Assembly: GCA_012862495.1 (NCBI GenBank)
Contig: BLSG01000398.1
Coordinates: forward strand, 1-51,236
DNA from: Thraustochytrium aureum
Lineage: Eukaryota
Direction: 5' to 3'
DNA length: 51,236 nt
Shown in pieces: positions 1 through 51,236 of this stretch (within the stretch, counting starts at the first letter, position 1; every line of letters starts with the position of its first letter). Both the position numbers and the translations under genes were made by a program. The notes below the pieces were generated by a model, which saw only the letters and a program-made list of their open reading frames with translations, was not told the origin of the DNA and did no database searches.

Positions 1-106
1 GAGAGAGTATGGGAGTACGGCGTAACGTAACGGGCGATGTGAGGGCCGCGCGCGCTGGCTTCTCTGCGTCTCCTCCTGAAGTACTTGCGTTGTGATAGGC
101 CCAAGG

Positions 107-127
107 TGGCAGGCAGGCAGGCAGGCG
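107..127 (+). repeat. (GGCA)n microsatellite upstream of the DHHC gene
   Basis: ggcaggcaggcaggcaggc read directly. Confidence 0.85.
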
Positions 128-212
128 GTCAAGATCACAGGGGCAAGGAGGGCAAAGCGCGAAGGCGGAGGGCAGGGCCCCAAGGCAGCGGCGGTCTGCT
201 GCGCAGTGCGCG

Positions 213-7029: not shown

Positions 7030-7071
7030 GTTTTAGCCACGAGTGAGGCTCGCGAGCGAAGCCAAGCCAGA

Positions 7072-12208: not shown

Positions 12209-12531
12209 GCAGGCAGCAAGGCAGCAGGCAGGCAGGCAGGCAGCAGGCAGGCAGGCGGGCAGGCAGGCGGAGGAGAGGCAGGCGGGTCGCTAAGGTGGAG
12301 AGCGAGGGGCTTGCGAGGCAGGCAGGCAGGCGGGCAGGCAGGCAGGCAGGCAGGAGAGCAGGGGAGAGCGGGAGAGCAGGGGAGAGCGGGAGAGCAGGCG
12401 GGAGAGAGCGGCACGGGACGCGGCGCGGCGAGGCGAAGGAGGCAGGGAGGCGGGCAGGCGGCTGCGCACCACGCGCGGCCGCCGGCTGGTTGTGTTGTTG
12501 TTGTTGGTGGTGGTGGGTGGTGGTGGTGGTG
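12209..12531 (+). repeat. Compound low-complexity tract: (GGCA)n-like, purine-rich GGGAGAGC repeats and (GTT)/(GGT)n, upstream of the giant gene
   Basis: Read directly between the gap and ATG 12607. Confidence 0.85.
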
Positions 12532-12606
12532 CGGGCGGAAGGCGGCGCGAGGCGCACGGGAGGCTGGGGCGAAGGGCGGCGCGCGAGAGAGGGACGGAGA
12601 GAGAGG

Positions 12607-12684
12607 ATGGGCCCGGCGTGGACGGGGCTTGTTGCCCTGGCAGCGGCCCTGACCGTTGTGCTGGGAGCGTCGAGCGCGAGCGGG
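12607..12684 (+). other. Predicted signal peptide of the giant protein
   Basis: MGPAWTGLVALAAALTVVLGASSASG|QSPES: hydrophobic core followed by a small-residue cleavage site. Confidence 0.8.
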
Positions 12685-15600
12685 CAGAGCCCCGAGAGCG
12701 CTTGCATCGCGTTCAACACGAACGAGGACCAGTCGTACTGGGATGAAATTACGAATGTTTGCAAACCGTGTCTGGGAACGCCGGGGTGCGGGTTTTGCCT
12801 GAGCACGCTGCGGTGCCACGCCGGCGACGCCCACGGACCGCTGGACGGAAACACGTTCTGCCCGGACTGGGTAGGCGGCGCAGACGCGGCTTGCCCGATC
12901 AAGCCCGCGTGCGACGAGTTTACGGACTGCAACGGATGCGCGATGCACGAAGACTGCGCCTGGTGTCCGTCCGCGAACAAGTGCATGATCCTGACTGAGG
13001 TGTTTTCAAGCGGATGCCGCGGAACCGTCTTCGACCCGCCGTGCCCAGCCTCATTCATTGGGGTCAACCGCGTGCTCGGCAACATGGTCGTAGAGCCCGA
13101 CCCTGCGTTCGGTGGTGGCCACTTTGAGGCGTTCGGGCATGCGGAGGGGACAGGCAACAGGTTCGAGTTCACCCTGACAGACAGCGAGCTCGTCCTGCAG
13201 TCCGCGTACGACCTTTCCGCCAGTGCAGGCCACCGCGTTGGGATCAATGAGCGGGGCGGCGACGTCGCTGTAACAGCGGGAGACGGGCAGAGCCAGAACA
13301 AGGGCAAAGGTGGACACGTGTCGCTCCAGGCAGGCGCTGGGCTGGGCCAGGTCGCCCACGGCGGAGCCGGGGCCGGCGGGGACGTGCGCCTGACTGCAGG
13401 CTCCTCTTCAGAGGCGGCTGGCGGTCGTGTCGTTCTTCGCGCTGGCTTGAGTGCCGCCGGCCCAGGTGGGGACGTTCTGCTCTCATCGGGGGCGTCCACG
13501 TCGGCCGGTTCTGGCGACGTCGAAATTGGGTCGCACGACTCCGCCCTGCTGAGCTCGGGGCAGATTGTGCTTCGCAGCGGCAATGCTGCGACCCAGTCAG
13601 GCGATGTCGTCTTGCAAACTGGTGCGACTAGCTCTGGTTCGGTGGGCTCCATCTCGCTTCTTGGCGGCTCCTCCCACTGGGGCCGCCGTTCCCGGCGGGG
13701 GCATCAAGCTGCAAGCTGGTTCGGCTTCCGGGGCTGCTGCGCCCGGAGGAAATGTCGAGCTCGCGAGCGGTTCGGCAAGTGGGGACGGTGCCACCTCCGG
13801 CGCCGTTCGCATTGCTTCCGCAGCCGGAACGGCGTCCGGGGGCGTAAGTCTGCAAACCGGAGCCGCGTCTCAGGCCGCCTCCGGGGACATCACGCTTTCG
13901 ACGGGAGATTCGAGCACGTTCACGCCCGGCAAGATTGTGCTCCGAGTCGGTGCTGCCCTGTCGCGCGACCACGGAGGCGATATCGAGCTGCACGGAGGCC
14001 TCGCCACTGAGGCCACCCGCTCCGGCGGCGCCGTCATGCTCAACGCCGGCGCTGGGATGCGCGGCGGCGCCGTTCGACTGAACGGCGGCCTGGCCTCCGG
14101 CACGGACGGACCCCTGGATACAGGGGGGGGTGTTGACGTCCGAGGCGGCAACGCCCAGTCTGGAAAGGGTGGATCCGTCTCGATCCTATCCGGAACGTCG
14201 ATCCTCGACGCCTCCGGCGACGTAGCGATTGGCTCGGCGGCCACACCTGCCACCGGAAGCGACTCTGGCTACCTGTCACTGTCGACAGGCGACGCGATCC
14301 TCGGCGACTCTGGCATGATTGTGCTCAGAACCGGGAACAGCGCTTCGCGGCGAAGCGGGTCCATCTCGCTCCTCGCCGGGACAGGGGGCGGCGCCGTCAC
14401 GCTTCAGGCAGGGGCAGGCTCCGCAGACGCGGCGATCCCCGGCGGGCCCGTGCGCCTCACTTCTGGCTCTGGCCCGCAAACCGGGGATGTCGAGATTCGA
14501 TCGGCACCGTCCACTGGCGAGCCGTCAAACAACGCGAGCAGCTCAGGAGACGTCACCGTGCAGTCCGGCGACGTCTTGGCTGGCACAAGCGGGTCAGTGC
14601 GCATCGCGAGCGGGACGGGAACGCAGAACGGCAGAGCTGGGTCCGTCTCAATCCGTGTCGGTGGCTCTGCCTCAGGAAACGGCGGCTCGATTTCTCTCGC
14701 CGGCGGCATGACCTCTGAGGCGCAGGCCTCAGGCGGAAACGTGGAGCTTATTGCAGGTTCAGGTACAAACGTTGACGGCGGCTCCGGAGGCAGTGTTGTC
14801 CTGCGAGGCGGACCCGCAGGAGGCAACGCAGACGCCGACGGCGGGAGTCTTGGCATCGGAGGCAACGTAGAAAATGTACGGCGGCTTCTCGGCGGACTCG
14901 CCCGGCGGAGCCGTCATGCTCACAGGCGGCGAATCTACCAAGAACTTTGGCGGCAACATCGTTCTGCGCTCTGGAAACGGGGTAGCGACCTCGAGCGGCA
15001 GCATCTCCATCTTCACTGCAAACGCAGGGCCGGTGGGTGTTTCCGGAAGTATTTCACTCAGCACCGGGACCTCGTCAAACGGAGACTCCGGGACTGTGTC
15101 AGTGGAATCCGGGGACGCGGCTGGTGGTCGGGCTGGCTCGATCAGCGTAGCCGTGGGCGTCTCGGAGGAGGGCGACGGGGGCGATGTTTTTGTCTCGGCA
15201 GGCCTATCAAAGTCTGGGGCCACAACTGGCGGCCGCGTTGTCATTTCGGGCGGAGAAGGCCAAGACGTCGACTTGTCAAACGGTGGCAACGGAGGCGCTG
15301 TCTTCATCTCTGGTGGCGAGGCAAAGGGCAGGGCCGCCTCAGACGCTGGCGGAGCAGTCTTGGTTTCTGGTGGCCTCGCTGCGGGCGGGAATGGGGGCGA
15401 TCTTGAACTCCTCTCGGGCCGCTCAGCTGAGAGGTCCTCGGGCCCTGTGCTGCTTGCATCCAGTGACGCAGGTCTCTCGGGCGTATCCGGCGATATTGTG
15501 ATCCGCACAGGACGTGCAACGGCGGGAGACGCGGGATCGATCGCACTCACAACCGGACAAGCCGTCGACGGTGCCGGCGGCAGCCTTGTCCTCTCGGTTG

Positions 15601-18600
15601 GCAACGGCGATTACGGCGACGGCGGAGACATCATGCTCACGGCAGGGACCACGCTCGACACCGGTCGAGTAGGCGGTGCAGTTGAGATCCGAGGAGGCCA
15701 GGGTGCAAGCCCCCATTCCGGTGACGGCGGCGACGGCGGCCAGGTTCGCCTTTTTGGCGGTGAAGCCCGCGGAACAAGCTCTGGCGACGTGGGCGGGGAC
15801 GTCATTGTCGAAGGTGGGCGGGCTTTCGCTGGCACTGGGGGTAGCATGCGTTTCACGTCTGGCGCGGGCACGGCGACGAGTTCCGGGCGCGTCTTGATTG
15901 AAACCAGTAATGCGGGTCGAAACGGTGTGTCAGGCTCCTTGACCCTCTCCACCGGCACAGCGAGCCAAGGGAGCTCTGGCTTTGTCAACGTGGAAACAGG
16001 GCGCGCGCTTGGCGGGAGCGGTGGCTTTATCAACGTTGTCGTCGGCGAAGGCAACTACGGCGACGGAGGCCACATCAACGTTGCGGCTGGCAAGACCACC
16101 GACAGCTCTGGTGCTTCGGGTGGGTACATCGCCGTAACGACTGGCTACTCTGCGCAAACGTCCTCCGGGTCGTTTGCGCTCCGGACGCCCAACGCAGGTC
16201 TCATCGGCGTTTCCGGGGGGATTTCGCTTTCGACCGGAACGAGCAGTGCCGGCGCGTCCGGCCACGTCGGTATCGGAACGGGCTACTCCAATGGCGGCCC
16301 AGGCGGCGATGTTCGTGTCTACGTAGGTACTGGACATTCCGGCGACGGTGGCAATGTTACGATTACGGCGGGCGAGGCAACCGCAAGGGCCGCCACTGGT
16401 GGCAACGTTGTAATTGCTGCAGGCGAGGGCTCCAGTCAAGAAATCGGCAACGGGGGCAACGGCGGCAAAGTCCAGGTATTTGGTGGCGCCGCTCAAGGCC
16501 GAAGCAAAGACGACTTTGGCGGCAACGTCGAGCTACAAGGCGGCTACGCACACACCGGTACCGGTGGCAGCGTGGTGCTCCACTCTGGCTTCAGCCTCTC
16601 ATCGAGCAGTGGAAGTCTCGTGCTTCGCACAGCCAACGCGGGTACTGCTGGACTTTCAGGCGCGATCACACTGTCGACGGGCGAATCCACCGCAGAGTCC
16701 TCCGGAGCAATCAACGTTGGATCAGGCACCGCACGGGGTGGTCGCGGAGGGGACATTTCTGTCACCGTCGGCACGGGCAACCTGGGGCGGGGCGGTAACA
16801 TCACGCTCACTGCAGGCACGACAACTGCAACTCGCTCGGGCTCTACCGGTGGCACAGTCTCGATCACGACAGGCTTCTCCAAGGAGACGAGCAGTGGAAA
16901 CTTTGTGGTTAGGACACCGAATTCCGGGTCCTCTGGCGTCTCCGGGTCTATGGTTTTCTCGACAGGCACTGCCTTCAGTGGCAACTCGGGCCGCTTTCAT
17001 GTTGCCACCGGAACCGCGCAAAAAGGTAGTGGGGGCGAGATTGACATGGCAGTTGGACGGGGCTTCGTTGGCGACGGTGGATTCGTCCGCCTCACCGCAG
17101 GCGAAGCCACGGCTGCTGCCGCTACTGGCGGCTTCGTGCGGATTACGGCAGGACGAGGCTCAAACACCGACTCCACCAACGGTGGCGATGGTGGGCATGT
17201 TGAGATTTTCGGCGGCGAAGCACGTGGCAGAAACGCCCAGGATTTGGGCGGCGATGTCGCGCTCACCGGCGGCGAAGCCAATAGAGGATCCGGGGGCTCT
17301 ATCGTGCTGAAAAGCGGTGTCTCTGAAATCGCCTCGAGTGGGTTGGTGAGCATTACGACCGCAGACTCTGGCCCCAATGGCGTTTCCGGCAGCGTGTCGC
17401 TCAGGACTGGGGAGTCGCTGGACGGTCCCAGCGGCATTCTGCAGCTCTCTACGGGGATCGCAAATGGCGGCAACGGCGGCAGCATTCGCGCCGAGGTGGG
17501 CAGTGGCAATGTCGGCGATGGCGGCGACGTGATCGTCACCGCTGGTATCACCAGCGCCGCCGCAAGGAAAGGCGGGAGTGTCTACATATCCGCAGGGAAC
17601 GGGACAGCCAAGACCACCACAGGACCGCTGGGCGGAGGAGACGGCGGGGACATTCACATGACCAGTGGTCATGCGGAGGGCCGTGTCAGCGTCGATCGAG
17701 GCGGCAACTTCACGATCAATGCAGGCTCGAGCCAGGCGGGCACGGGCGGGTCTGTTTGGATCTATTCGGGGCGCTCATTTCTCGCAAGCAGTGGCGAAGT
17801 CCGGATCGGCTCTGCAAACGCTGGCGACGACGGTGTTTCGGGTCCAATGACGCTTCACACTGGCGTCTCAACAAAAGGGTCCTCCGGAGCCATCATGCTC
17901 GCCACTGGCACCGCCGTGGGAGGCTCGGCTGGGAACATCACCATAAATGTCGGCACGGGCAACGCGGGCAGTGGTGGCAACCTGACGCTTTCAGCTGGGG
18001 GGACAACTGGGGTCGCATCTGGTGGCGCCTTGAGCCTCACCTCGGGCTTCTCCAGCACAACTTCTTCGGGAAATATTGCGATTCTCACCGCGAATGCCGG
18101 GGCTCGCGGCGTCAGCGGATCGATTAGCCTTTCAACGGGGACCGCGTCTAACGGGAACTCCGGTATCCTACAGATTAGCACTGGTCGCGCCAACGACGGC
18201 ATGGGCGGGAGCGTGCTGATTCATGTTGGAACTGGCGAGGGCGAGTTGACCAAGGTGGGAGGGAACGTTACCCTCCGCGCCGGGAACACGACGGCGGACG
18301 GCACAACCGGAGGCGGCGTCTACATCCTGGCTGGCGATGGTATGTCGCAGAGCCAGAGCGGCGGCGGCCGGGGTGGCGAGGTAGTTCTGCGCGCGGGGCA
18401 TGCCGACGGCAAGAATTCCGTAGACAACGGCGGCAACATGTTTCTTAGCGGAGGATCCTCTGTAGCAGGCGTTGGTGGAAACGTGACGATTCTCACAGGG
18501 CGCTCCTCCGGATCGAGCTCAGGCAAGCTGCAGCTCGCTAGCGCGGACGCTGGCACGCAGGGTGCCAGCGGGAGTGTCTCCATCACCAGCGGATCCGCAG

Positions 18601-21600
18601 AGCGACACAACTCTGGCACGATAGAGATTTCCACCGGTCCGGCGAATGGTGGTGCTGGCGGTCCTGTTCTCGTTGCTGTCGGTCAGGGGACCTCCGGTAC
18701 TGGTGGGGAAATTTTCCTGAAGGCAGGCTCGACGTCATCGGCAACACACGACGGCGGCGCGATCCGCTTGCTCTCTGGGGCAGCGTCGTCTAAGCAGCAA
18801 ACGTCTGGAGCGCTCGAGCTCCAGACTGCCCCAGGCGTCGGCGGGAGTGGTTCAGTCCTGATTGCAACTGGGAATTCCGATTCATTGCGTTCGGGTGTTA
18901 TCCGCTTGAACACTGGCAACGCAACCACCTCCCGTGCTGGTGACATCGAATTATCTGTTGGGAGTTCTGGAGTTGGCGCTGGCGGCTCCGTTGCGCTTTC
19001 AGCTGGCCTAGCGGCCGGGTTGCCGGCGACCGGGGGTAGCGTTTCGATTGTTTCTGGTCCCTCAACTCGTGCCACCTCAGGAAGCATTCTCGTGGCGACT
19101 CCGTCTGCAGGTCACGAGGGCGGTTCTGGCTCGATCAATATTACGACTGGCCGTGCAACCAAGGACCAGTCGGGGAACATTACCTTGTCAACAGGAGACT
19201 CGTCGAGCGGACACGGCGGCGATATCGTTCTTGAAGTGGGCGGAGCCACCAGGTCCACGGGCGGATTCGTAGGGATCCGCGCGGGAAACACGAGTGCCGA
19301 CAAAACAACCGGGCTCGTCCCTTCTGGGGGGAGAGTCGAGATTGTGGCTGGCTCTGCGACGCACCAGGGAGCCGGGATTGGAGGCGACGTCGTTGTCTCC
19401 GCAGGCGTTTCGCTAGGAAGGGATGCAACGAATCGTGGCGGCTCGCTTGTGTTTGCTGCTGGCTCGGCTGTCGGGGGCGTCGGCGGAAACGTCTCCGTCG
19501 CAACTGGTTCAAGCACCGAATCGAACAGCGGCACCCTGCGGCTGGACACGGGGCTCTCTGGATCGAAAGGTGCGTCTGGTTCGATTTTTCTCCAAACTGG
19601 TGTTTCTCTTGGCCAGACGTCCGGACAGGTCGTCCTCCGGACAGGACGCTCTGCGAAGGGCGCTGGCGGCGATGTCGTGATCGCCGTCGGGAATGGAACT
19701 AGCGGGGCTGGTGGCTCGGTTAGCATATCCGCAGGCAACACGGAACAGAGTGGGCCAAGCGCGACCGGTGGTTGGGTTTCGATTCAGTCTGGCGCCTCCG
19801 CAGCCACGTCTAGTGGATCAGTGTCTGTTGGATCTGCCAACGCTGGCGTGGAGGGCGTGAGCGGCTTCTTAGTCCTCTCAACCGGCGCTACCTTGGATGG
19901 GTCCAGTGGGCCAATTAACATGACGAGCGGTTTCGCAATGGGAGGCTCTGGGGGTTCGATTCGGATTGCTGTTGGTGGGGCAACTGCGCCTCTGCAGCGA
20001 GGAACTGCCGGTGGGAATGTCACTATCCTTGCAGGCGACACTGCTGCGAACGATGCTTTCGGGGGCGACATCACGCTACAGGCAGGATCCGGCTCCAGCA
20101 CAGATGATAAGCTCGGCGGGCAAGGCGGAAACGTGGTCTTGCGCGGTGGCGCAACGGCCTCAAAGACAAGTGGTGCGACGGGCGGCCGCCTGGTTTTCGA
20201 AGGAGGGTTGGCCTCAAGCGGAGAAGGAGGCTCGGTCAGTATCAAGTCGGGTCGGGGTTCCGCGACGACGAGCGGCTCCCTGAATCTTTCCACCGCTGAT
20301 GCAGGTACGGCTGGCGCCACAGGTAACGTGTCGATGACCTCCGGCGACTCTACTAAGGGTGCATCCGGGAACGTATACATTGCTACCGGTGCCGCGAAAG
20401 GCGGGGCAAGCGGGACGATCTCAATCCTCGGCGGGAGGAGCGATACACATATTGGTGGCGATCTGATCCTTTCCGCCGGCTCGAGTTCCACGAAAAATGG
20501 CGGGGGGTTGTTGTTGAGACTGGCTCATCGACTTCGGCTTCAAGCGGCTCACTTTTTCTGCGGACGTCTCCTGCGGGAGTCCAGGGCGACTCTGGATCTG
20601 TTAGCGTCTCCACTGGCTCGACCACAAAGGGGAGCTCGGGGGACATCCTTCTCGCAACTGGAGGGAGCAAGGGGGCGCCAGCGGGGTCAGTGCGCATCGA
20701 AGTCGGCACTAGCTCTGGTGGATCGAGAGCTTCGAACCTTGACCTCCGTGGAGGGAACATTACCGACGCTGATGTACGTGGTGGGAACGTTACCATCATG
20801 TCTGGCATGAGCGGGCGAACCTCAAGTGGCTTCGTCCATATTCTTTCTGCGGACGCCGGCGTCAAGGGAACGAGTGGCGATGTCGTTGTCGGCACCGGTG
20901 TTGCCACAGTCGGCTCCTCGGGCCGCCTTGAGCTTTTCACTGGAAGTAGCAAGAGCGGTCCTGCTGGCCCCATTCGCATCGCAGTTGGGGTAAGCAACAG
21001 CGGCGATGGAGGCGACGTTTCCATCTCGGCAGGGAGTGTTGTTTCAGGCTCCTTCTCTGGAGGGGCCGTCCGCGTTTCGAGCGGGGGCAGTGAGCTTGGT
21101 TCCTCCGGCCCGGTGCTTGTAGAGACCCCTGCGTCTCCGAAGGGGCGCAGTGGAGACATCCATGTGAAAACGGGCACCACCGATAGCGCAGACGCACCTT
21201 CTGGCGATCTGACTTTAGAGACAGGGTCAGCGACGCTCGGCTCCTCGGGAGCGATCGAGATACGGGCAGGCGTTGCTGTCAAGAAAGGTGGCAGTATTCT
21301 TGTCGCTGCTGGAGATTCTACCACACAGGACGGGGGCGACGTGGTCGTGCAGTCTGGCTCGGCTGCAGCCGCTCAAGGCTCGTCCGGGTCGGTCTTCGTA
21401 CGTTCGAGCGCTTCTGCAATGGGACCAACCGGGGCCGTAGATCTCGCAACAGGAAACTCGACGTCTAGTAGTTCGGGCCCCATCAACATTTCGACAGGTT
21501 CGGCTCGGAAAGCCGCTGGCGACATCACTCTCAGAGTCGGGAAGAGCCAAGATCTAGCTGGTGGTCAGATCCAGCTTCGCGCTGGGGACTCTGAAATAGC

Positions 21601-39600: not shown

Positions 39601-42600
39601 AAGGGCGACGTCGGAGGGATCCAAATCTCGGGTGGTTCGTCGGCTGGACCGAGTGTCTCGGGAGGCGGGGTGAGCATCTCGGGCGGGGCCGGCGATGCTC
39701 AGGGATCCCAAGGAGGTGCAGTTATTTTGCAAGGTGGGCGCGCCGCAGTTGCGGTCGGCGGAGACGTCACGCTCCAGAGCGGGTCTTCAATCTCTTCTTC
39801 CAGCGGGGCAGTTCGCGTCGCTTCCGCCCCCTCTTTGGCCAGTTCTTCCGGCTCTGTCGAGTTCGGGACTGGGAGCTCAGCAGCAACGAGTGGAAACGTA
39901 TCTATCTCTACTGGGGCATCAGACGCTGCGAGCGGCTCTGTCCAAATAACTGTCGGCGAGGGCAAAACGTCAGCAGGGTCGCTCGTCCTCGTTGCTGGTC
40001 GTGCCGCGGGCGGGCATGGCGGCAACGTCGACCTTAAGAGTGGGGCGTCTCTCGGTGCAGGGCTCAGCTCTGGATCTGTTTCCGTTGCTTCCGCTGATCA
40101 CAATGCTGGCTCGTCAGGGCCTCTTAGACTCGCAACTGGGCGGTCTGCCTCGGCGTCCGGTCACGTTGAGATATCCACGGGAACTTCTGGTACAGCTGGA
40201 GCGGTTCATATTGCTGCAGGTGACTCAACCGGAGCGACCCCGGGGTTGGGCGCTTTGCCCAGCGCTGTGTTTATTCGCGCTGGTCGCGTTACGGGAGCCG
40301 AAGGCGGTCCGATCGACGTTCGAGCTGGGAACAGTACCAACGCGGGTGGTGGCACACTCCAGCTACGTGCAGGAAGCGGTCCGTTAGCTGGCGGAGACGC
40401 GATATTGCAGGCGGGGCATTCGCTGTCCTCGAACGGTGTGGGCGGTCACGTGCAAGTATCTGCTGGGGGCTCCGCGAGTCGGGGTGGGGACGTCCTCCTT
40501 GCTGGCGGTGCAGGATCGTCCTCTGCGCCCGGTGGCGCCGTCGATATCCGCGGGGGTGCAGCTGCAGGTGCGCGGGCTGTCAGCGGTGGCGTCGTCATTT
40601 CGAGTGGTGCGCATGTAGCTGGGCCGAGCGGTGACGTTGTCCTTACCACAGGTAGGCCTGGGAGCTCTGGGGGCTCTGGGAGCATACGAATTGCATCTCA
40701 TGACGCCGTCGGCGGTTCGAGTGGCGACGTCACCGTCGGCTCTGGTGAGTCTGCCGGTCCACCTGGCCACGTCAGCCTTGTCGGTGGCACATCAATCGGA
40801 ACAGCAAACGCTGGCGGACTCGTTTCCGTGCAGGGTGGCCGAGCCAATGCGCCGCAGCTTCCTGGAGGGTCTGTTCGGATTGAGAGTGGCGGCAATCCGT
40901 CGGGTGGTCCGAGTGGGTCTGTTGAGATTTCAACAGCCCACAGTATACTTGGGGTTGCACAGAGCGGAGCTTTGAGTCTGCGATCAGGTGATACTGGTGC
41001 TGGCCGCGCCTCTGGGTCCATTTCGATTCGCAGTGGAGCCGGCGGATCGGGAGGCGGAATTCTCATTCAAGTTGGTGCTGGGTCTGACCGTGCCGGTGGG
41101 CCTGTGCGTATCGAGGCTGGTAGCACCAACAACGCCGATTTGAGTGGCGGAGATGTCAATGTCACATCTGGCTCGAACATTGCGGGCCCAAGCGGTCGAA
41201 TCGTGTTGACAACGCCCGATGCGGGCTCTGCGTCCGGAAGGAGCGGAAGCATATCTATCAAGACCGGGAACAGCCCGATGGCATCCTCAGGCGGCGTCGA
41301 GATTGCTGTCGGCGATGGGGCGCAAGCGGGCGGTCGTGTCGGTCTTGTTGCTGGGACGAGTGCTTCGAATCGCGGCGGTGATGTGTCGCTTGAAGCGGGT
41401 TCTTCTCGCTCTGCGGGATTTCAGGGTGGCTCATTGATCCTGACGGCGGGAGCCGGCATTGTCGCTCCTCCGCAATCAACTGGCGTCGCAGGTAGCGAAA
41501 CTTCGACGGCAGGCGGCGAGATAAAAATCACAGCAGGCGTTGGACTCGCTGGTTCTGGCGGTGGTGTCTCCGTCCGCGGCGGAAACGGCCGGGCAGAATC
41601 TGGTGGTCGTGTTCGCGTGCTCGGTGGCGACCTCGCGGGCGCAGGCATTGCCGCGGGCGAAGTCTACCTGGAAGGCGGCCAGCATCTTGGCGCGTCGGGT
41701 TCGGGTGGAAATGTTACACTTCGTGGTGGGGGCGGGCCCACTGCTGGCGGCGACGTCTCAATATTCTCTGGTACAAGCGGGCGAAGGTCTGGCGGGATCA
41801 CCGTTCGCACAGCTCCTGGGGAAGGCGGCTCCGGTAGCGTGGAGGTTTCATCTGGTGCAACAGGTGGGAGTGTCGGGTCCGGCACCGTCCTGCTTCGAAG
41901 TGGCAATTCTCCGAATTCGCAGGCTGGACCAGTTCAGATTCGCGGAGGTGATGGCCGAGTCGGATCGTTTGTTTCTATCCGAGCTGGCGATTCGGCTGAC
42001 GCAGGCAGTGCGATTTCCCTCGAGTCAGGTTCCGCTCTCGCGTCTGGTGTTGGAGGACCGATATCCATCGTTGGCGGCGATAGCTTGCAGGGAGTTGGAG
42101 GCCGCGTCACTGTAAAGACTGGCTCTGGCGCAACGGGAAGCGGTTCCCTTGTCCTCCAGAGCGCTCAAGCCCCAGGTGGCTCGACTGGAGAAGTTTCTCT
42201 CGGGTCTGGAATCGCCGTGGGCGGGCCTGCGAGCGGTGGAGTGGCAGTGTCGACCGGCGATGCGACGGTGGGTCAGGCCGGCAACCTGACGCTTTCTGCA
42301 GGAAACTCGGCCGTCGGGGTTGGGGGTGCGGTACACGTCACTGCTGGTGCAAGCGCAGCAACTGACGCTCAAGGCGGTCTCGTGCGCATTCAAGCAGGAA
42401 GCTCTGCGCAACTTGGCGGCGACGTCGCGATCACTGCTGGCTCTGGCGCCTCGACGGGCGGGTCAGTAGTGGTGTCCAGTGGCCCTTCAACCGTTCGCGG
42501 GTCGTCTGGCAATGTAACGGTCGGGTCCGCGACTGCTGGACTCGCCATGGGCTCTGGCGACGTTGCTCTTGCTTCTGGAAACGCGCTTGGCGTTGGCAAA

Positions 42601-45600
42601 ACTGGATCAGTCCGTGTTCAAGCAGGGACCTCTGCTGGCGGGCCTGGGGGGAGTGTGCTTGTCTCCACCGGTCCGTCGGCCTCAACTGTCGGCCAGATTC
42701 AGCTTCGCGCTGGCGCTAGCATGGCCAAGGCGGGAGGCACAGGTGGGGCAATCAGTATTGCCGCTGGTGTGGCAACTGGAACGGGCTCCAGTGGTGGCAG
42801 CGTCGAGCTGTCAGCAGGTGAATCCCTCGGAGGCCCTGGTGGCGCGGTGTCTCTGCATGGCGGTTCTGCTCGCGGCGGTCAAGGCGCTGGTGGTGCAATT
42901 GAACTGCGCGGCGGGGATGCAACAACGACTGCCGGCGGCCGCGTTGACGTTCGTGGTGGGGCCGGCAATACTGTCGGTGGTGAGATCGACATTGAGGCCG
43001 GGACGGGGCGAGTACTTGGGGGGAATGTGAATTTGCGTTCCGGGGCTGCCAGCGAGGGCGCTTTGAGCGGAAGCGTTTCGATTTCCACTTCGAGGAGCTT
43101 GGATTCGTCAGGCTCCGTTTGGGTTGGGACGGGGTCCGCTGGTTCCTTGTCCGGTCAACTTAACGTTACCACTGGGGCATCTGCGCAAGCAGGCGGGATT
43201 TTCGTCGGGCCTGGTCTCAGCTCTGGTCCCCAAGGTGGTTCCGTTGTTGCTTTAGTTGGCGGTTCGTCAAGTGGCGCTGCTGGCGGTACTGCCGTCCTGC
43301 AGGGCGGCAGCTCGAGCGCTCAGGCTGGGCCGGGCGGGGTGGCTTCCGTGAGAGGCGGGAGCAGCGCTCTGTTCGGCGGCGACGTCAACGTAACGTCAGG
43401 CTCTGGAGCGCAAGTGTCTGGCTCTGTCAGGTTAACAACGGCAGAGAGCACCACTAGTGGGCGTCTGTCTCTCGCAACTGGAACATCGTCACGAACCGCC
43501 GGAGCAATCACCTTGCGGCCCGGCGATACCTTGAATGAGGTAGAGGGGGCCGCAGTGCAGATTTTTGCGGGAGGGTCCTCATCGCAGGCATCGGTTGGCG
43601 GGCGCCTTGATCTAGTTGGTGGCAGCGGGCAGGGCACCGGTGGAAACGTCCGCGTGGAATCTGGACCTGGAGGACCTGGTGCTGCTGGCAACGTGACGAT
43701 ATTCGGCGGCCAGGGTGGAACGCGATCGGGCACTGTTTCCGTTCGTGGTGGCTCGTCTAGTACTGGCCGAGCTGGGGACGTTGTGGTTTCTGGAGGAGAC
43801 TCATCTGCCAGCATCCCAGGTAACTTGCATCTTTCTGCTGGCGGTGCGGACTCCAGCAGTCCTGCTCAAGGCGGAGCCGTAAGCCTGGTTTCTGGCGCTT
43901 CAATGAACAGCTGGAGCGGCTCTGTTCTGATCGAGTCTGCCGCTGCAGCCACCACGTCGCCCGGAAGTGGAAATGTGCGCGTCTCAACAGGTCCGTCCGG
44001 CCGCGGAGTGTCAGGTCACCTCAACATCACCACTGGCGATGGTGGAACTGCGGGGAATGTCGTCATCGCCTCTGGAAGCTCCAGTGTGGCATCTGTTGGC
44101 TCGCAAGTCATTGTCCAAGCTGGTCGCGCCGTTGCGAACCGTGCCGTTGGCGGGCGACTTTCCTTGCTTGCTGGTTCCTCCTCTGGTGGGCCTGGCGGCG
44201 ATGTTGCAGTGGCAGGAGGGGCTGCTGGTGGAGGTCTCGGGGGCGCTGTTGTCATTTCAAGTGGCGAATCCCGCACCTCCGCTTCTGGTGGAGTCTTCAT
44301 CTCAACTGTGAGTTCTGCCGTTGGCTCCGGAGCAGTCAACATTTCCACTGGCTCAGTATCCTCTGGTGCTGCTGGGTCCATATCTCTTGAGACGGGCAAT
44401 AGCGAGTTCGCAGGAGCAGTTTCCATTCGAGTTGGAACCGCTGCGAAGGGCTTGGGTGGCAATGTCACTATTCAGGCTGGCGACTCGGAGGGCGACCGGT
44501 CGACGGCAGGCCGATTGCGCATTCTTGGCGGAACTGGTCGGAGAGGTGGTGGAGGGGACGTCGAGGTCCTGGCCGGGGCTTCGCTTCTTGGTGAAGGCGG
44601 TGCCGTCTCAGTTTCTTCGGGACTGGGGACCAGCTCGAGCGGAGATGTGGTTCTGTCAAGTGCCAGTGGCGCAGTGCGCTCTGGCGCTGTTTTCCTCGGT
44701 TCCGGGCAAGCCGTTTCGAGCAGCAGCGGAGAGGTTGTTGTTCAATCAGGTCTCGCTTCAGCCAACCGGGCCGGGAACGTCACCGTACGCGGTGGTTCAA
44801 GCGGGATTGGGAATGGTGCTGCTGTTCGAATCTTTGGTGGGGATTCCGTGAGGTCTGGTCTGAGTGGTGGAGGTATCGATATTGTTGGCGGCGCAAATGC
44901 CGACGCGGGCGCCGGAGGTAGTGTGGCGATTTCAGGTGGTACGGCGGCAAGGTCTACCGGCGGCGGGGTCGCTATTTCGAGTGGCGGTGGCGTCAGCGGA
45001 AGCGGTACAGCATCTCTCAGATCGGCTGACGCTGCCGGGGCGAGTTCAGGTGACATCTTTGTTACTTCAGGAGCTCACTCGGGACCCAATACGGGCCAAT
45101 CCGGCCAAGTGTTGATCGCATCTGGACCCTCTGTCGCGGGTTCCGCCGGCCAGGTTCAAATTCGAGTCGGTCGCTCAGGAAGCGCGAGTGGGGGCGCCGT
45201 GAGCATTCACTCTGGTGCAGGTGCCAGTATTGGAGGCAACATTGAGTTAACCTCCGGAGCTGGTTCTGCGGCGTCCGGGCGCTTGGAGCTCTCCACAGGT
45301 GGAGGCGCCGCATCGCAATCTTCTGGTGCTGTTGTTCTGTCCTCTGGCGCAGGCGCAACGCGAGAATCCGGCCCAGTGTCTGTTGAGTCAGGTGCATCTC
45401 AGGCTGCCTCCGGGTCGGTCTCGCTTAGCTCGGGTGCAGCTTTTGCTGCTGGCAACGTCACGGTCCTTGCTGGCGCTAGCTCTGGCGCTAACGCCGGCGG
45501 CGCTCAGGTTCGCGTCTTTGGAGGCAACTCGCAAACTGGCTCAGGTGGTTCCGTTCAGATCCAGGGTGGGTCTACTCTGGCACTCTCGCCGCGTCGTGGA

Positions 45601-48600
45601 GGGGCAGTGCGCGTGGCCGGTGGCGAGGCCGCCAACAGCGGGGCGATCCTTATTGAGTCTCCAACGGCGCAAACGTCTTCAGGAAATCTTGAGTTGCGTT
45701 CTGGCAACGCAACGACCGGGGCGTCTGGAGCCGTCTCCATGGCGACTGGGGCAAGCCCGACTTCGCCAGGCGAAATATCTATTGTTGGGGGTACTGCACT
45801 TACAAACGGTCGAGGCTCCACGGTGCGGCTTGAGGCTGGAGCAGGGCTTGGTTCTGCAAGTGGTGGAGACGTTGTTGTGGCTGCAGGCAACTCGAGCAGG
45901 ACGCTAGGCGGATCCGTTTCGATCGTTTCTGGGCGATCAGGCGCCGGTCCAAGTGNNNNNNNNNNNNNNNNNNNNNNNNNNNNNNNNNNNNNNNNNNNNN
46001 NNNNNNNNNNNNNNNNNNNNNNNNNNNNNNNNNNNNNNNNNNNNNNNNNNNNNNNNNNNNNNNNNNNNNNNNNNNNNNNNNNNNNNNNNNNNNNNNNNNN
46101 NNNNNNNNNNNNNNNNNNNNNNNNNNNNNNNNNNNNNNNNNNNNNNNNNNNNNNNNNNNNNNNNNNNNNNNNNNNNNNNNNNNNNNNNNNNNNNNNNNNN
46201 NNNNNNNNNNNNNNNNNNNNNNNNNNNNNNNNNNNNNNNNNNNNNNNNNNNNNNNNNNNNNNNNNNNNNNNNNNNNNNNNNNNNNNNNNNNNNNNNNNNN
46301 NNNNNNNNNNNNNNNNNNNNNNNNNNNNNNNNNNNNNNNNNNNNNNNNNNNNNNNNNNNNNNNNNNNNNNNNNNNNNNNNNNNNNNNNNNNNNNNNNNNN
46401 NNNNNNNNNNNNNNACGTCATCCTCGCTGCGGGCGCGTCGACGAGCCCGGTGGCCCGCGGTGGTGCGGTGAACATAACTGCGGGGCGTGGTGCCGGCCTT
46501 GGCGGCGGTATATCGATTGACGGCGGCTCAGGTGTGGCTTCCCGCGGTGGCGACGTACGCGTTGCCGCTGGAACAGCAGATCGTCTAACCGGCGGGAACC
46601 TGACGCTCAGTAGCGGATCCAGCGGTGCGACAACATCTGGGTCAGTGGCCATTGGAACGCCATTTGCTGTTGGGGGCTCGAGTGGTTCGATTGCTGTCTC
46701 CACTGGGGCCGCCGTCCAACAAGCTGGCTCAATCCAGCTTGTGGCAGGAGCAAGCTCTGGGGCTCGAGGTGGCCAAGTCTTCATTGAAGCAGGAAACTCC
46801 GGGTCTGGGGACGGAGGCCCCGTTAGCATTCAAGCCGGTCGCAGCCAGAGCGTGACTAGCGTCGGAGGCGCTGTGACAATCTCAGCAGCGCAGGGGCAGG
46901 GCGCAGGAGGGAGCGTAAGCGTTCTTGGTGGTGCTGGCGTCAGCGCTAACGGAGGGTCCATCGTCCTTGAAAGCGGGCCGAGTGGGAGGGCTAGAACTGG
47001 GGATGTTGCAATCAAGTCTGCGAACTCGGAGGCAGCACGGGCTCTTCCGGTGACGCTTCGCTCTCCACCGGAAGCGCCAGCGCAGGCCGGTCTGGAAGCG
47101 TCGTCATTTCTAGCGGCAGCAGTGCTTTGGAGACTGGCGACATAACGGTAGCGGTTGGGACCTCTGCTCTCCGGGACGGGGGGGTAGTGGCTGTGCAAGC
47201 GGGAAACGCCACCGCCCGGCATGGCGGTGATGTTGCTATCCAAGCCGGGACTGGCGGTTTAACCGGTGGTGATTTGCGTCTGACGACGGGAGCTGGTCTC
47301 GGAGGTCGTGGCGGTAGCATCTTGGCCCGTGCCGCATTATCGAGCTCTGGGCGCGGCGGCGACGTTGTCTTTGCAGCTGGTGATACGCGAGGCCAATTCG
47401 ACCAAGGTGGAAACGCATCGTTCTTCGCAGGAAGTGGTAGAAGTGGTGGCCACGTTGAATTTCGAGCAGGCGCCGGAAGCACTGGACCAGGAGGTGACCT
47501 CTTGTTTCAATCAGGCCGCAGTGATTCCTTCAACTCGGGGAAGATTGACTTTGCTACGCCAAACGCTCTTGTTGACGGCGACTCGGGAGCTGTCACATTT
47601 CAGACTGGAAATACTGTTGCGGAGACAGCGGGGCTGTGCTTTTTTCGACGGGCTCTTCTGCCGATGGGGCCGCGGGGCCGATCTCGCTGCTGGTTGGTGA
47701 CACCGCCTCAGGAACGGGCGGAGACATCTTGATTCACGCTGGGTCAAGCAAAACGAGCACTGGTGGCTCAATCGAGATTCTTGGCGGCAGTGGCCTCGCG
47801 ACGTCGAGTGGCATTGTGACGATTGGCTCTCGAGACGCGGGGGTCGCCGGTACAAGCGGTAGCGTGTCGATTAGAACAGGCAAGGGGACTGCAGGACCGA
47901 CCGGCTCGATCTCCATCTCGAGTGGGGATGCCAAGAACGGCGACTCGGGCAGTTTTGACGTTCTCCTCGGTCAGAGTGATGGCGGAAGGGGTGGCAATGT
48001 TTCCGTTTCTGCAGGCTCGAGCCTGCGCTCATTCGGCGGCAACATTGCCTTGACGTCTGGCACAGGATATGCAAGCTCAAGCGGGAACGTCACCATAAGC
48101 TCAAGCGCGGCCGGCACTGCTGGAGTAAGCGGTAGCATGGTTCTCGAGACGGGCACGGCAACTCTTGGCCCTAGCGGGTCGATCCGAATCGCGACTGGAC
48201 GATCCCGCAACGGCAACGGAGGCAATATTGACGTGGTTGTTGGAAACGCAACGAGCTCCAGCGGCGGGAACCTCACAATGATTGCCGGCCAAAGCAGCAG
48301 TGCAGATGGCGGCAACGTTGTCCTTATGTCTGGGCTTGGCCTTGCGACCACGAGTGGTAACGTGTCCATTGGATCAGCCCCAGGTGGTTCCACTGGTCGC
48401 TCCGGACAGGTCAGCGTCTCAACTGGCATGAGCTCCAGGGCGCCGTCCGGGCTGCTCAACCTCACAACTGGTGAGGCTTCGTCAAGCCGAGCTGGGCACA
48501 TTAACATTTTGGTGGGAGGCTCCGGGTCTGGTCAAGGATCAAACGTTGTTGCTCGCGCTGGCAGGAGCTCGACCAGGACAGGTGGCCAAATGGTTTTGCA

Positions 48601-51236
48601 GTCTGGATTTGGCGAGGCTTCTTCAAGCGGCATGGTCAATATTTCCTCTGCAAACGCTGGCACGTCTGGCACGAGCGGAAGTATTGCTCTTTACTCTGGC
48701 CTCGCCACAAGAGGCACCAGCGGCTCGCTGGACTTGCAGACCGGAGACTCTCTTGCAGGCCGATCTGGAAACATCAACATAAACGCTGGCCTTGCAACCG
48801 GCAGCATTGGTGGTGACGTCACCGTTGGTGCAGGCACAAGCACGACGTTGACTGGCGGCCAGCTTTTCCTTTCCTCTGGTTTCGGACAGACCGCCAGCAG
48901 CGGACATGTATATCTCGGCAGTGCCCGCACTGTGGTGGGGACTAGCGGGCGCCTCAACATTTCCTCTGGATATTCTGGCGAAGGGTTCTCGGGGGAGGTG
49001 TTCGTTGGCACTGGAGACGCAGCATCAGGCATGGCTGGTGATATGACATTGATGGTTGGCTCTGGTGACAGTGGGGCAGGGGCAAACGCCCTTCTCATGG
49101 CCGGGAATTCAACAACTTTTGGAGGTTTGACTGGGGGCCGCGTCACTATTTCAAGCGGGCATTCTGCGCAAACGACAAGCGGAGCGATATTGATCGGATC
49201 CCCAAATGCTGGGGTTGCCGGGGTATCGGGGCGCGTTGCTCTCTCGACAGGCACAGCCACTCTTGGCTCAAGTGGAGAAATCTCGATGTCTACGGGAAGG
49301 TCATCTCTTTCAGGAGCAGGTGGGCGGATTTCGCTCAGCGTTGGCCAAGGAACATTGGGCGCAGGTGGCGACATCATCCTCGACGCCGGAGACACTGTTG
49401 ACCAAACCGGAGGCTCGATATCCCTAATCACCGGCAGTGGAACCACGACCTCAAGTGGACACGTATACATTCGCTCCCGCGATGCAGGGATAAGCGGGGT
49501 GTCCGGCTCACTCCAGTTTAGTACCGGCACAGCGTCCTTCGGAGCGTCTGGCGAGGTGAAGATCCAGTCGGGAGCAGCATATGGCTCGAACGGCGGTTCC
49601 ATAAGCTTGCTTGTTGGAGATGGCGACAAACCTGGAGGCGATGTCATCCAACGCGCTGGTCTTTCGCGCGACGAGACGGGTGGGGCAGTCTCTATCACGT
49701 CTGGCGGCGCGACAGCGACCTCGAGTGGACCGATTACAATATCGACAGCAAACTCCGGGACTAGTGGTGTCTCCGGAGCTCTCACGCTTTCCACAGGAGT
49801 GAGTTCTGCTGGAGCAACTGGAACTATCATTTTGAGCACTGGCGAGTCAACTGGTGGAAAGGGAGGAGACGTTGTTCTGAGCGTCGGATCTGGGGACACC
49901 GGACGTGGCGGAGACGTCCTGGCAACTGCCGGACTCAGTTCTGTAGCAACCGGAGGAAAGGATTANNNNNNNNNNNNNNNNNNNNNNNNNNNNNNNNNNN
50001 NNNNNNNNNNNNNNNNNNNNNNNNNNNNNNNNNNNNNNNNNNNNNNNNNNNNNNNNNNNNNNNNNNNNNNNNNNNNNNNNNNNNNNNNNNNNNNNNNNNN
50101 NNNNNNNNNNNNNNNNNNNNNNNNNNNNNNNNNNNNNNNNNNNNNNNNNNNNNNNNNNNNNNNNNNNNNNNNNNNNNNNNNNNNNNNNNNNNNNNNNNNN
50201 NNNNNNNNNNNNNNNNNNNNNNNNNNNNNNNNNNNNNNNNNNNNNNNNNNNNNNNNNNNNNNNNNNNNNNNNNNNNNNNNNNNNNNNNNNNNNNNNNNNN
50301 NNNNNNNNNNNNNNNNNNNNNNNNNNNNNNNNNNNNNNNNNNNNNNNNNNNNNNNNNNNNNNNNNNNNNNNNNNNNNNNNNNNNNNNNNNNNNNNNNNNN
50401 NNNNNNNNNNNNNNNNNNNNNNNNNNNNNNNNNNNNNNNNNNNNNNNNNNNNNNNNNNNNNNNNNNNNNNNNNNNNNNNNNNNNNNNNNNNNNNNNNNNN
50501 NNNNNNNNNNNNNNNNNNNNNNNNNNNNNNNNNNNNNNNNNNNNNNNNNNNNNNNNNNNNNNNNNNNNNNNNNNNNNNNNNNNNNNNNNNNNNNNNNNNN
50601 NNNNNNNNNNNNNNNNNNNNNNNNNACAGGCGTTTCTGCCAGCCAGGGTGGGTCCATTCAGTTGACAGCTGGACTCGGGAGTACCGAGACGGGAGGCAAG
50701 ATCTCCCTCACTAGCGGAGTCGGAACTGCTTCGACAAGCGGCCGCATCGAGCTCGTCACGGCTCCTGGCGGCGGCAACGGTGTGAGCGGTGCGGTGACCA
50801 TTGACACGGGCTCGACCACGGCCGGCGACACTGGTGAATTCCGCGTTCTGACAGGCGTTGCTGCAGGCGGCAAGGGCGGCGCGATTACTCTGAGCGTCGG
50901 CGACGGCAACAGCGGCGCGGGCGGTCTGGTCGCCATCACGGCTGGCACGACAAGCGCCCTCACGGGTGGCTCTGTCTCGATCAGCTCTGGATCCGGAACC
51001 AGCACAAGCAGCGGGCCCATCTCGCTCGCAACGCCCTCAGCAGGCACGCTGGGCACCAGCGGGGCTGTTTCCGTCAGTACTGGATCAGCTCCAGATGGCG
51101 ACACGGGCGAGTTCCGTGTCGAGACCGGCGACGCTCTGGGCGGGAAGGGTGGCGACATCAGCCTTCTGGTTGGTGACGGCGACTCTGGCATTGGTGGCGC
51201 AGTGACCGTGACAGCTGGTTTAACCACTGCAAGCTC
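12607..51236 (+). CDS. Giant (>12,800 aa, 3'-incomplete) secreted Gly/Ser-rich beta-repeat protein with N-terminal PSI-like domains and three internal peptidase S74/ICA domains; 10 frameshifts and 3 gaps
   Basis: ATG 12607 followed by a signal peptide. The same (G/S)G-x-[VIL]-x-[ILV]-x-[AST]-G repeat continues through ORFs 11461, 13565, 14874, 20690, 25525, 30215, 32350, 34422, 35027, 36973, 47127, 47636 and an open frame from 50626 to the window end. Frames switch at about 13673, 14871, 20502, 25405, 30613, 32219, 34267-34275, 34964, 47028 and 47621. No stop seen in the repeat-bearing frame. Confidence 0.8.
12703..13047 (+). other. Two tandem PSI (plexin-semaphorin-integrin)-like Cys-rich domains
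   Basis: CKPCLGTPGCGFCLSTLRCHAG...CPDW...CP and CDEFTDCNGCAMHEDCAWCPSANKC...C...CP fit the PSI pattern CxxC-x4-C-x-[WF]-C-x5-C. Confidence 0.75.
29716..30023 (+). other. Peptidase S74 / intramolecular chaperone autoprocessing (ICA) domain 1, Ser-Lys dyad intact
   Basis: SDIRIKEKI...YQYKKEW...RGVIAQQLKEVFPEYV...ENFHKVDKVSLILDLVGAFQE. Ser codon at 29716, Lys codon at 29731. Confidence 0.9.
31400..31711 (+). other. Peptidase S74 / ICA domain 2, Ser-Lys dyad intact
   Basis: YP|SDRRIKENI...YQYTEQW...RGVIAQELAETFPEYV...DDFHEVNKQAITLDLVSALQ. Ser codon at 31400, Lys codon at 31415. Confidence 0.92.
37576..37896 (+). other. Peptidase S74 / ICA domain 3, catalytic Ser replaced by Asp
   Basis: FP|DDERIKTNI...FEYSDEW...RGLVAQQVAKTFPEYV...DKFHEIDQQQLTLDLVSALQ. 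GAC at 37576 where the other two copies have Ser. Confidence 0.88.

What the first reader, a model, noticed from the sequence alone, without database searches (positions are those of the whole stretch)
12607..51236. Giant eukaryotic secreted fibre-like polyprotein with three internal phage-tailspike/MYRF-type autocleaving chaperone domains
Seen: signal peptide, PSI-like domains, >12,000 aa of beta-strand repeats and three S74/ICA domains in one reading path. Established: S74/ICA domains (phage K1F endosialidase chaperone, MYRF) drive trimerisation and self-cleave through a Ser-Lys dyad; in phage fibres they normally occur once, at the C-terminus. Inference: this is a homotrimeric beta-helical fibre made as a self-processing polyprotein, with each chaperone folding the segment before it. 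If each of the ~800 repeats adds one 4.8 A layer, the visible part is about 0.35-0.4 micrometres long. I know of no characterised eukaryotic protein with this layout.
Basis: partly seen in the sequence, partly recalled or inferred. Interest (0 to 1): 0.95.

Follow-up and report, generated by a model that had tools for sequence, protein, structure and literature searches.

The report
Giant self-cutting protist fibre polyprotein
A single-celled eukaryote carries one unbroken gene for a protein of more than 12,800 amino acids, made of about 750-780 short repeats and three phage-tailspike-type chaperone domains; it likely folds into a secreted three-stranded fibre that would cut itself at two of the three domains, a layout also found in water moulds and not found in the literature searched.

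Summary
Confirmed, with one correction. One + strand reading path runs from ATG 12607 to the window end: 12,313 sequenced codons, no stop. Short-read contigs of the same or a near-identical organism carry frame-restoring indels at 9 of the 10 frameshifts and show no intron-like joints, so those breaks are assembly errors. The gene runs on past the window into a collapsed 217-aa tandem array. It encodes a signal-like N-terminus, a PSI-like Cys-rich head, about 750-780 15-residue Gly/Ser beta-type repeats and three S74/ICA domains of the MYRF type. Only ICA1 and ICA2 keep the catalytic Ser-Lys pair; ICA3 has Asp for Ser and is predicted not to cut. The family occurs in zoosporic oomycetes and unnamed protists; two independent sequences also hold three ICAs, active and dead mixed. 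The closest known system is the TLP-12 triple-beta-helix glycofibril, whose ~20,000-aa alveolate candidates have 12-residue repeats and one C-terminal ICA. So a giant eukaryotic ICA fibre is not unprecedented; serial internal ICAs that would cut or merely register the fibre appear to be new. Trimer fold, cleavage and biological role are inferred, not shown.

The parts
12607..51236 (+). Giant intron-free reading path, 12,313 sequenced codons plus about 550 codons in three N gaps; open at the window end
   Evidence: read contigs
12607..12684 (+). Signal-peptide-like hydrophobic N-terminus
   Evidence: highest hydropathy window of the protein; cleavage site not predicted by a tool
12697..13050 (+). 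Cys-rich PSI-like head (16 Cys); same arrangement, split by introns, in locus L002
   Evidence: Pfam PSI E 5.5e-4 below cut-off at 12910-12990
13230..29470 (+). Repeat tract 1: about 347 15-residue repeats [GSA]-G-x-V/I-x-L/I-x-[AST]-G-x-[SAG]-x4
29716..30010 (+). ICA1 (S74), S-D-I-R-I-K, Ser-Lys pair intact; preceded by a ~80-aa non-repeat neck
   Evidence: Pfam 38.3 bits
30030..31130 (+). Repeat tract 2: about 25 repeats
31400..31710 (+). ICA2 (S74), P-S-D-R-R-I-K, Ser-Lys pair intact; 47-57% identical to oomycete-type homologues
   Evidence: Pfam 44.2 bits
31760..37320 (+). Repeat tract 3: about 109 visible repeats plus one N gap
37576..37895 (+). ICA3 (S74), P-D-D-E-R-I-K: Asp replaces the catalytic Ser; predicted non-cleaving node; sister of ICA2 in the tree
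   Evidence: Pfam 33.1 bits; codon GAC, two changes from any Ser codon; covered by a 1,225-nt read contig with 1 difference; tree
37950..51236 (+). Repeat tract 4: about 267 visible repeats plus two N gaps
50626..51236 (+). One copy of a collapsed 651-nt (217-aa) tandem unit; the gene continues beyond the window
   Evidence: about 4-5-fold depth in all four runs and a head-to-tail joint with 40 letters between in three of four runs; in frame

Best explanation
This is one intact gene for a protein of more than 12,800 residues that is likely secreted and likely folds as a homotrimeric beta-stranded fibre, in which three internal ICA chaperone domains would bring the three chains into register, two of them would then cut the chain and the third, which lacks the catalytic serine, would stay as an uncut node. 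Shown: the single reading path, the repeat anatomy, the three MYRF-type ICA domains, the Ser-Lys pair in ICA1/ICA2 and its loss in ICA3, and the same mixed layout in other organisms. From established knowledge (MYRF, MrfA, phage K1F): ICA domains work only as trimers, cut just before the Ser, and sit next to triple beta-helices. Inferred: each 15-residue repeat gives one beta-strand (two inward hydrophobic residues) and a Gly/Ser turn, stacking about 4.8 A per repeat; serial ICAs let a chain too long for one C-terminal chaperone be zipped section by section in the ER; cuts at residues ~5,706 and ~6,268 release a PSI-headed rod of ~5,700 aa (~170 nm), a 562-aa stub, and an ICA2-led remainder of >6,600 aa (>180 nm) with the dead ICA3 inside. 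Ser+Thr make up 24% and probably carry O-glycans, as on TLP-12. The most likely role is a structural cell-surface or extracellular filament (coat, hair or tether), with the Cys-rich head as tip or anchor.
For: One gene: 9 of 10 frameshifts matched by read-contig indels of exactly the restoring sign, no joint except those at the terminal tandem repeat, gap-edge letters read open in the repeat frame; of the 40 listed substitutions, 22 are synonymous, 18 missense, 0 nonsense, 24 at third codon position. Independent multi-ICA ORFs: L001, a 3,918-aa open frame with 3 ICAs (active/dead/active) and 150 repeat motifs; P0007, 1,767 aa, 3 ICAs (active/dead/dead, one with the same P-D-D motif); P0008 and L004/L005 with 2. 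ICA identity: Pfam S74 x3, MYRF 7dc3 E 2.7e-14; the Tyr-x-Tyr, G-V-I-A-Q and Phe positions mutated in the MYRF study are kept in ICA1/2. 104 of 147 tree rows form one repeat-associated group apart from MYRF/MrfA-like and viral rows (FastTree support 0.996); Ser-less domains fall in at least four separate places of that group, so loss of cutting with retention of the domain recurs. Precedent for the fold: TLP-12. A P. sojae model holding the homologue is transcribed.
Against: No structure supports the trimer directly. The single-chain model of 12 repeats (pLDDT 66, pTM 0.47) gave no match in pdb, only weak viral matches (best TM 0.21) and Z below 5 to outer-membrane beta-barrels, which points if anything to an antiparallel meander. 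The helix after each ICA is about 20 residues, against 36 (N670-K705) for the coiled coil that drives MYRF trimerisation. In MYRF the ICA hardly touches the upstream stalk, so 'each chaperone folds the segment before it' is a phage-based inference. The frameshift near 13675 was not resolved by the reads, the gaps are only partly seen, and the C-terminus (anchor, further ICAs) is unknown. Runs X2-X4 are only guessed to be RNA.
Confidence: 0.65

Rival explanations
1. Same gene and same trimer, other fold: each chain forms an antiparallel beta-meander or its own beta-roll, and three pack into a prism, not an intertwined parallel triple beta-helix. Length per repeat would be similar, the folding role of the ICAs smaller.
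For: The single-chain AlphaFold model resembles long antiparallel sheets (top rows all beta-barrels, Z 4.5 or less); one hydrophobic strand plus a long Gly/Ser turn per 15 residues suits hairpins; the TLP-12 motif is absent (0 tandem matches).
Against: A one-chain model of an intertwined trimer is unreliable (pLDDT 66) and Z under 8 is uninformative; ICA domains of known structure lie next to triple beta-helices.
Confidence: 0.17
2. The ICAs act only as trimerisation nodes; even ICA1 and ICA2 rarely cut in the ER lumen and the product is one continuous fibre of 0.4 micrometre or more.
For: 20 of 68 family domains with a readable motif lack the Ser, 12 of them also the Lys; dead domains are kept in several lineages; the coiled coil is short.
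Against: 48 of 68 keep both Ser and Lys across oomycetes and unnamed protists, and every multi-ICA sequence seen keeps at least one intact dyad (window, L001, L004/5, P0007, P0008); such conservation is hard to explain without catalysis.
Confidence: 0.11
3. An unstructured, mucin-like Gly/Ser/Ala glycoprotein in which only the ICA and Cys-rich domains fold.
For: 52% Gly+Ser+Ala, almost no aromatic residues; no sequence match of the repeats to any solved structure (best E 0.11).
Against: Strict 15-residue period with alternating hydrophobic residues and two near-invariant Gly, conserved between distant organisms; model pLDDT 50-90 for 179 of 180 residues with an alignment.
Confidence: 0.04
4. 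A decaying pseudogene, several adjacent genes, or an integrated viral fibre gene.
For: 10 frameshifts in the assembly; the one near 13675 is unresolved; homologues in databases are short fragments; giant-virus-like contigs carry arrays of S74 genes.
Against: 9 of 10 shifts are reversed by read contigs; no stop on the path; L001 is a 3,918-aa open frame; no family member among 68 viral loci (all but one with 5 or fewer repeat motifs), in annotated phages or in prokaryote genomes by one pattern; L002 has spliceosomal-type interruptions.
Confidence: 0.03

Closest known systems
TLP-12 glycofibril and its Amoebophrya candidate proteins (bioRxiv 10.1101/2025.09.30.679562; parts 1-4 of 5 of the text read; supplement closed)
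   Same: Protist, giant (about 20,000 aa), Gly/Ser-rich short repeats, ICA domain, extracellular fibre; works like it in the proposed ICA-chaperoned trimeric beta fibre.
   Different: TLP-12: 12-residue GSxxSx7 repeat with two strands and 9.6 A rise, one C-terminal ICA, alveolates. Here: 15-residue repeat with no GSxxS periodicity, three or more internal ICAs, active and dead, PSI-like head, named homologues in oomycetes.
MYRF / Dictyostelium MrfA ICA domain (PMC8326128, PMC3828593; passages read)
   Same: Closest solved domain (7dc3, E 2.7e-14); internal position, P-S-D-x-R-x-K motif, protein continues after the ICA.
   Different: MYRF has one cytosolic ICA, a short stalk, a DNA-binding domain, a four-heptad coiled coil and a transmembrane anchor. 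Here no DNA-binding domain, no membrane helix in the visible part, short helix, thousands of repeat residues on both sides, predicted lumenal; separate clade in the tree.
Phage tailspike/tail-fibre C-terminal intramolecular chaperones (K1F endoNF, GA-1 neck appendage 3gud; Pfam PF13884)
   Same: Same Pfam family and Ser-Lys chemistry.
   Different: One per protein, C-terminal and discarded; only E 0.02-0.14 to this family. Among the 135 non-family loci scanned none had two strong ICAs in one frame; one non-repeat protein with two was seen (P0105).
Stramenopile tubular mastigoneme proteins Mas1-3/Ocm (passages of bioRxiv 10.64898/2026.09.11.750887)
   Same: Secreted, Cys-rich modules, found in flagellate stramenopiles.
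   Different: About 64 kDa EGF-like shaft proteins; no S74 domain or Gly/Ser beta repeats reported in the passages seen. No sequence link was tested.

Membership tests
S74/ICA domain family (PF13884; MYRF type) | Profile match above the curated cut-off | tested here: met
   38.3, 44.2, 33.1 bits against 22; MYRF 7dc3 E 2.7e-14
S74/ICA domain family (PF13884; MYRF type) | Ser...Lys dyad (S-D-x-R-x-K) in ICA1 and ICA2 | tested here: met
   SDIRIK, SDRRIK; Ser and Lys essential in MYRF
S74/ICA domain family (PF13884; MYRF type) | Ser...Lys dyad in ICA3 | tested here: not met
   DDERIK, codon GAC, read contig agrees
S74/ICA domain family (PF13884; MYRF type) | Long C-terminal three-helix coiled coil | tested here: inconclusive
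   About 20-residue amphipathic helix by alignment, then repeats resume, against 36 residues in MYRF
S74/ICA domain family (PF13884; MYRF type) | Trimer-dependent self-cleavage | not testable with these tools
   needs expression
MYRF/MrfA transcription factors | Ndt80-type DNA-binding domain before the ICA and a transmembrane helix after it | tested here: not met
   No such Pfam hit in 14 segments; no membrane-length hydrophobic stretch after the N-terminus; C-terminus unseen
TLP-12-type glycofibril proteins | Dodecapeptide GSxxSx7 repeat | tested here: not met
   0 tandem matches; period is 15
TLP-12-type glycofibril proteins | Giant Gly/Ser-rich repeat protein with an ICA domain in a protist | tested here: met
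TLP-12-type glycofibril proteins | Single C-terminal ICA | tested here: not met
   three internal ICAs; a further terminal one cannot be excluded
TLP-12-type glycofibril proteins | Intertwined triple beta-helix core | tested here: inconclusive
   single-chain model only, no informative fold match
TLP-12-type glycofibril proteins | Dense O-glycan coat | not testable with these tools
   Ser+Thr 24%, 28-49% at several non-core repeat positions
PSI (plexin repeat) domain | Pfam PF01437 above cut-off | tested here: inconclusive
   20.7 bits against 23.1, E 5.5e-4
Tubular flagellar hair component | Present only in taxa with tubular hairs and expressed with flagellar genes | tested here: inconclusive
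   All named eukaryotic homologues are zoosporic oomycetes but no zoospore-less genome was searched; P. sojae profile resembles dynein rows but also 1,539 other module-3 genes

The most novel reading that the evidence does not exclude
This family is the unidentified thin-filament component of stramenopile tubular flagellar hairs (terminal or lateral filaments of fixed, unequal lengths), and the spacing of active and dead ICA domains is a genetically encoded ruler: one polyprotein cuts itself into filaments of set lengths, while dead ICAs serve as joints.
Probability: 0.15. Interest if true: 0.93.

Novelty: new variant of a known kind. Interest (0 to 1): 0.74.

Why it matters
It extends the phage-tailspike chaperone from a single terminal or single internal domain to a serial system that would both register and section a sub-micrometre protein fibre, with repeated evolution of non-cutting copies. 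The family is conserved in oomycetes (Phytophthora, Nothophytophthora, Aphanomyces, Achlya) and many unnamed protists but is annotated only as short 'hypothetical' or 'Peptidase S74' fragments, in one case as an archaeal tail fibre, so a whole class of giant secreted proteins is invisible in current proteomes. It gives sequence candidates for unassigned environmental glycofibrils and for protist surface filaments whose proteins are unknown, and precise predictions (cut sites, piece lengths) that proteomics and EM can test.

Tried and rejected
Three-copy complex prediction of the repeats: tool not available, no verdict. Single-sequence AlphaFold of the ICA2 region: pLDDT 36, not used. Fold searches with the repeat model: no informative match; sequence search of PDB with the repeat profile: best E 0.11. 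Search for long homologues of 2,154-6,857 aa: none among 257 candidates; the longest family hit anywhere was 1,767 aa, so no full-length model or C-terminus was found. Own genome and the records behind L001-L009 are not held. No RNA holder listed on record for the gene; runs X2-X4 are guessed RNA and no silent stretch was laid, so expression in this organism is open. Introns as the cause of the frame switches: rejected, no joints there and 1-2-base indels instead. Two pairs of shifts in the first Viterbi path (12760/12984, 31391/31515) were artefacts of the codon model and were dropped. ESM Atlas: repeat region 0.97-0.98 to unnamed clusters, one auto-named 'Peptidase S74', taxa 'Chlorophyta' from 2-3 members, with a low recognition value; N-terminus under 0.9: leads only. 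Literature: five searches for this architecture or its gene ids found no paper on a multi-ICA eukaryotic protein; no S74 term in the held supplements of a P. parasitica zoospore membrane proteome or an Aurantiochytrium proteome; PITG_01491 not in the held supplements of a P. infestans RNA-seq paper or the flagellar-gene list (a candidate-based list). These tables may list the protein under another id, and bioRxiv supplements were closed. P. sojae stage data do not separate a flagellar from another role. Earlier findings of the scan: none in 4 look-ups. The organism was not identified; a thraustochytrid-like stramenopile is a guess from memory of such genomes, not a result.
Full report
Observation. 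The window is a eukaryotic scaffold with six N gaps; upstream genes hit DHHC, SCAMP, PDZ and cNMP-binding families. From ATG 12607 a chain of overlapping + strand frames runs to the window end. A codon-model path found 10 real frame switches and three gaps; two further pairs of switches lay in non-repeat domains and were artefacts. Read in 14 segments the path has 12,313 codons and no stop; the gaps add about 550 codons by their nominal length.

One gene. Four public runs hold the stretch (two studies; one may be the source sample; three are only guessed to be RNA). Their contigs, laid on 12400-32390 and 32300-51236, show indels near 14871, 20501, 25404, 30618, 32219 and 34268/34272, 34963, 47036, 47620. 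All nine have the sign that restores the frame; six of the nine are seen in two or more runs, three in one contig. The switch near 13675 was not shown. No joint appears in the first half; in the second half the two joints concern the terminal repeat. The 21-30 letters that contigs carry into the gaps read open and in the repeat pattern (read by hand). The last 611 bases have about 4-5 times the depth of the rest and join head to tail with 40 letters between: a 651-nt, 217-codon unit, so the gene goes on beyond the window and probably exceeds 13,000 aa. Of the 40 substitutions listed (153 more not shown) 22 are synonymous, 18 missense, none nonsense.

Anatomy. A hydrophobic N-terminus precedes a head with all 16 cysteines and a sub-threshold PSI match. 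The rest is 22.5% Gly, 16.7% Ser, 12.4% Ala, 7.1% Thr, built of a 15-residue unit with one hydrophobic-x-hydrophobic strand flanked by two near-invariant glycines: 621 strict matches against 83 +/- 7 in shuffles, about 750-780 units in all. Three S74 domains, each after a non-repeat neck of about 80 residues, divide the chain into 5,705, 562, 1,883 and 4,182+ sequenced residues. Their profile matches the MYRF ICA structure at E 2.7e-14 and phage chaperones only at E 0.02-0.14. ICA1 and ICA2 have S-D-x-R-x-K; ICA3 has Asp at the Ser position, and a read contig over it differs from the window by one letter in 1,225, whereas Ser would need two changes. In MYRF and MrfA loss of the Ser or Lys blocks cleavage (PMC8326128 and PMC3828593, passages).

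Family. A profile search of 1.84 billion proteins gave 69 hits at E 1e-30 or better. Of 76 metagenome loci, nine (L001-L009) carry the repeats with ICA domains; L001 is one 3,918-aa frame with three ICAs, L004/L005 have two in one frame, L002 has the same PSI-like head. L001 reads active/dead/active, P0007 active/dead/dead, P0008 active/dead. Among 68 domains from repeat-bearing proteins with a readable motif (three are near-duplicates of one cluster) 48 have Ser and Lys and 20 lack the Ser. In a FastTree of 147 ICA cores, 104 rows form the repeat-associated group, apart from 43 MYRF/MrfA-like, viral and other rows (support 0.996; rows with more than 22 gaps and duplicates left out); Ser-less rows lie in at least four places, and ICA3 is sister to ICA2 (0.97), though long branches make inner forks weak. 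No family member was found in 68 viral loci, annotated phages or prokaryote genomes by one pattern. In P. sojae the homologue falls in one older gene model that spans three newer ones and is transcribed: mycelium 4.58, sporangia 4.63, zoospores 1.43, cysts 1.48, germinating cysts 2.60 (PMC10072465, one supplement row and passages; log2 FPKM by the methods). Six dynein-annotated rows are likewise low in zoospores, so this does not decide the role.

How it most likely works. ICA domains trimerise and cut themselves before the Ser. A chain with ICA domains and a strict amphipathic strand repeat is therefore most simply a trimeric beta fibre, as cryo-EM has shown for TLP-12, whose candidate proteins are about 20,000 aa with a C-terminal ICA. 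I infer that internal ICAs register the three chains section by section after entry into the ER, that ICA1 and ICA2 cut, and that ICA3 remains as a node. At 4.8 A per repeat the four tracts measure about 167, 12, 52 and 128 nm, twice that at TLP-12's 9.6 A. Against this: no trimer model could be obtained; the single-chain repeat model (pLDDT 66) matched nothing informative and leaned to antiparallel sheets; the post-ICA helix is shorter than MYRF's; and in MYRF the ICA hardly contacts the upstream stalk. I put the mechanism at 0.65, another trimeric beta fold at 0.17, no cutting at 0.11.

Role. Unknown in detail; a structural surface or extracellular filament is most likely (inference from signal-like N-terminus, absence of a catalytic domain other than the ICAs, Ser/Thr richness and the TLP-12 precedent). 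The bold reading is a flagellar-hair filament: Ochromonas hairs bear lateral filaments of two sizes and one to three terminal filaments (PMC2108286, abstract only), the known Mas proteins localise to the shaft or its development, and all named homologues are zoosporic oomycetes. No zoospore-less genome was tested, so this stays at about 0.15.

Novelty. The kind (giant protist ICA-chaperoned beta fibre) is described; the serial internal ICAs, the mix of cutting and non-cutting copies, the 15-residue repeat and the oomycete-wide conservation were not found in five searches of the held library, which lacks most subscription papers and bioRxiv supplements. Verdict: new variant of a known kind, interest 0.74.

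Noticed in passing
window 2184-7032, - strand: Two overlapping frames (4138-7032 with SCAMP and weak PDZ hits; 2184-4427 with weak GRAM and cNMP-binding hits) switch frame near 4400; may be one SCAMP-PDZ-GRAM-cNMP gene with another assembly frameshift, an unusual fusion.
   Followed up: partly
window 99-1502, + strand: Intact DHHC palmitoyltransferase gene (Pfam E 3.5e-24).
   Followed up: no
window 9201-10490, - strand: Open frame cut by an N gap, no Pfam hit for the part tested; function not pursued.
   Followed up: no
L001 6400-11755: The ICA-plus-repeats unit is tandemly duplicated with a period of about 590 aa; copies 1 and 3 are nearly identical and active, copy 2 has lost the dyad: ICA number can change by recent duplication.
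   Followed up: partly
L078-L104 (viral contigs): Several viral contigs carry arrays of adjacent long genes, each with one S74 domain near its C-terminus, without the 15-residue repeats.
   Followed up: no
protein P0100 (RYE85057.1): A family fragment with 32 repeat motifs and a Ser-less ICA is annotated as a tail fibre protein of a Methanosarcinales genome bin on a 3.5-kb contig; likely a mis-binned eukaryotic fragment.
   Followed up: no
window 15000-20400 and 47800-51236: Higher-order periods on top of the 15-residue unit (148 aa and 91 aa), and most N-x-S/T sequons cluster in such tracts.
   Followed up: no
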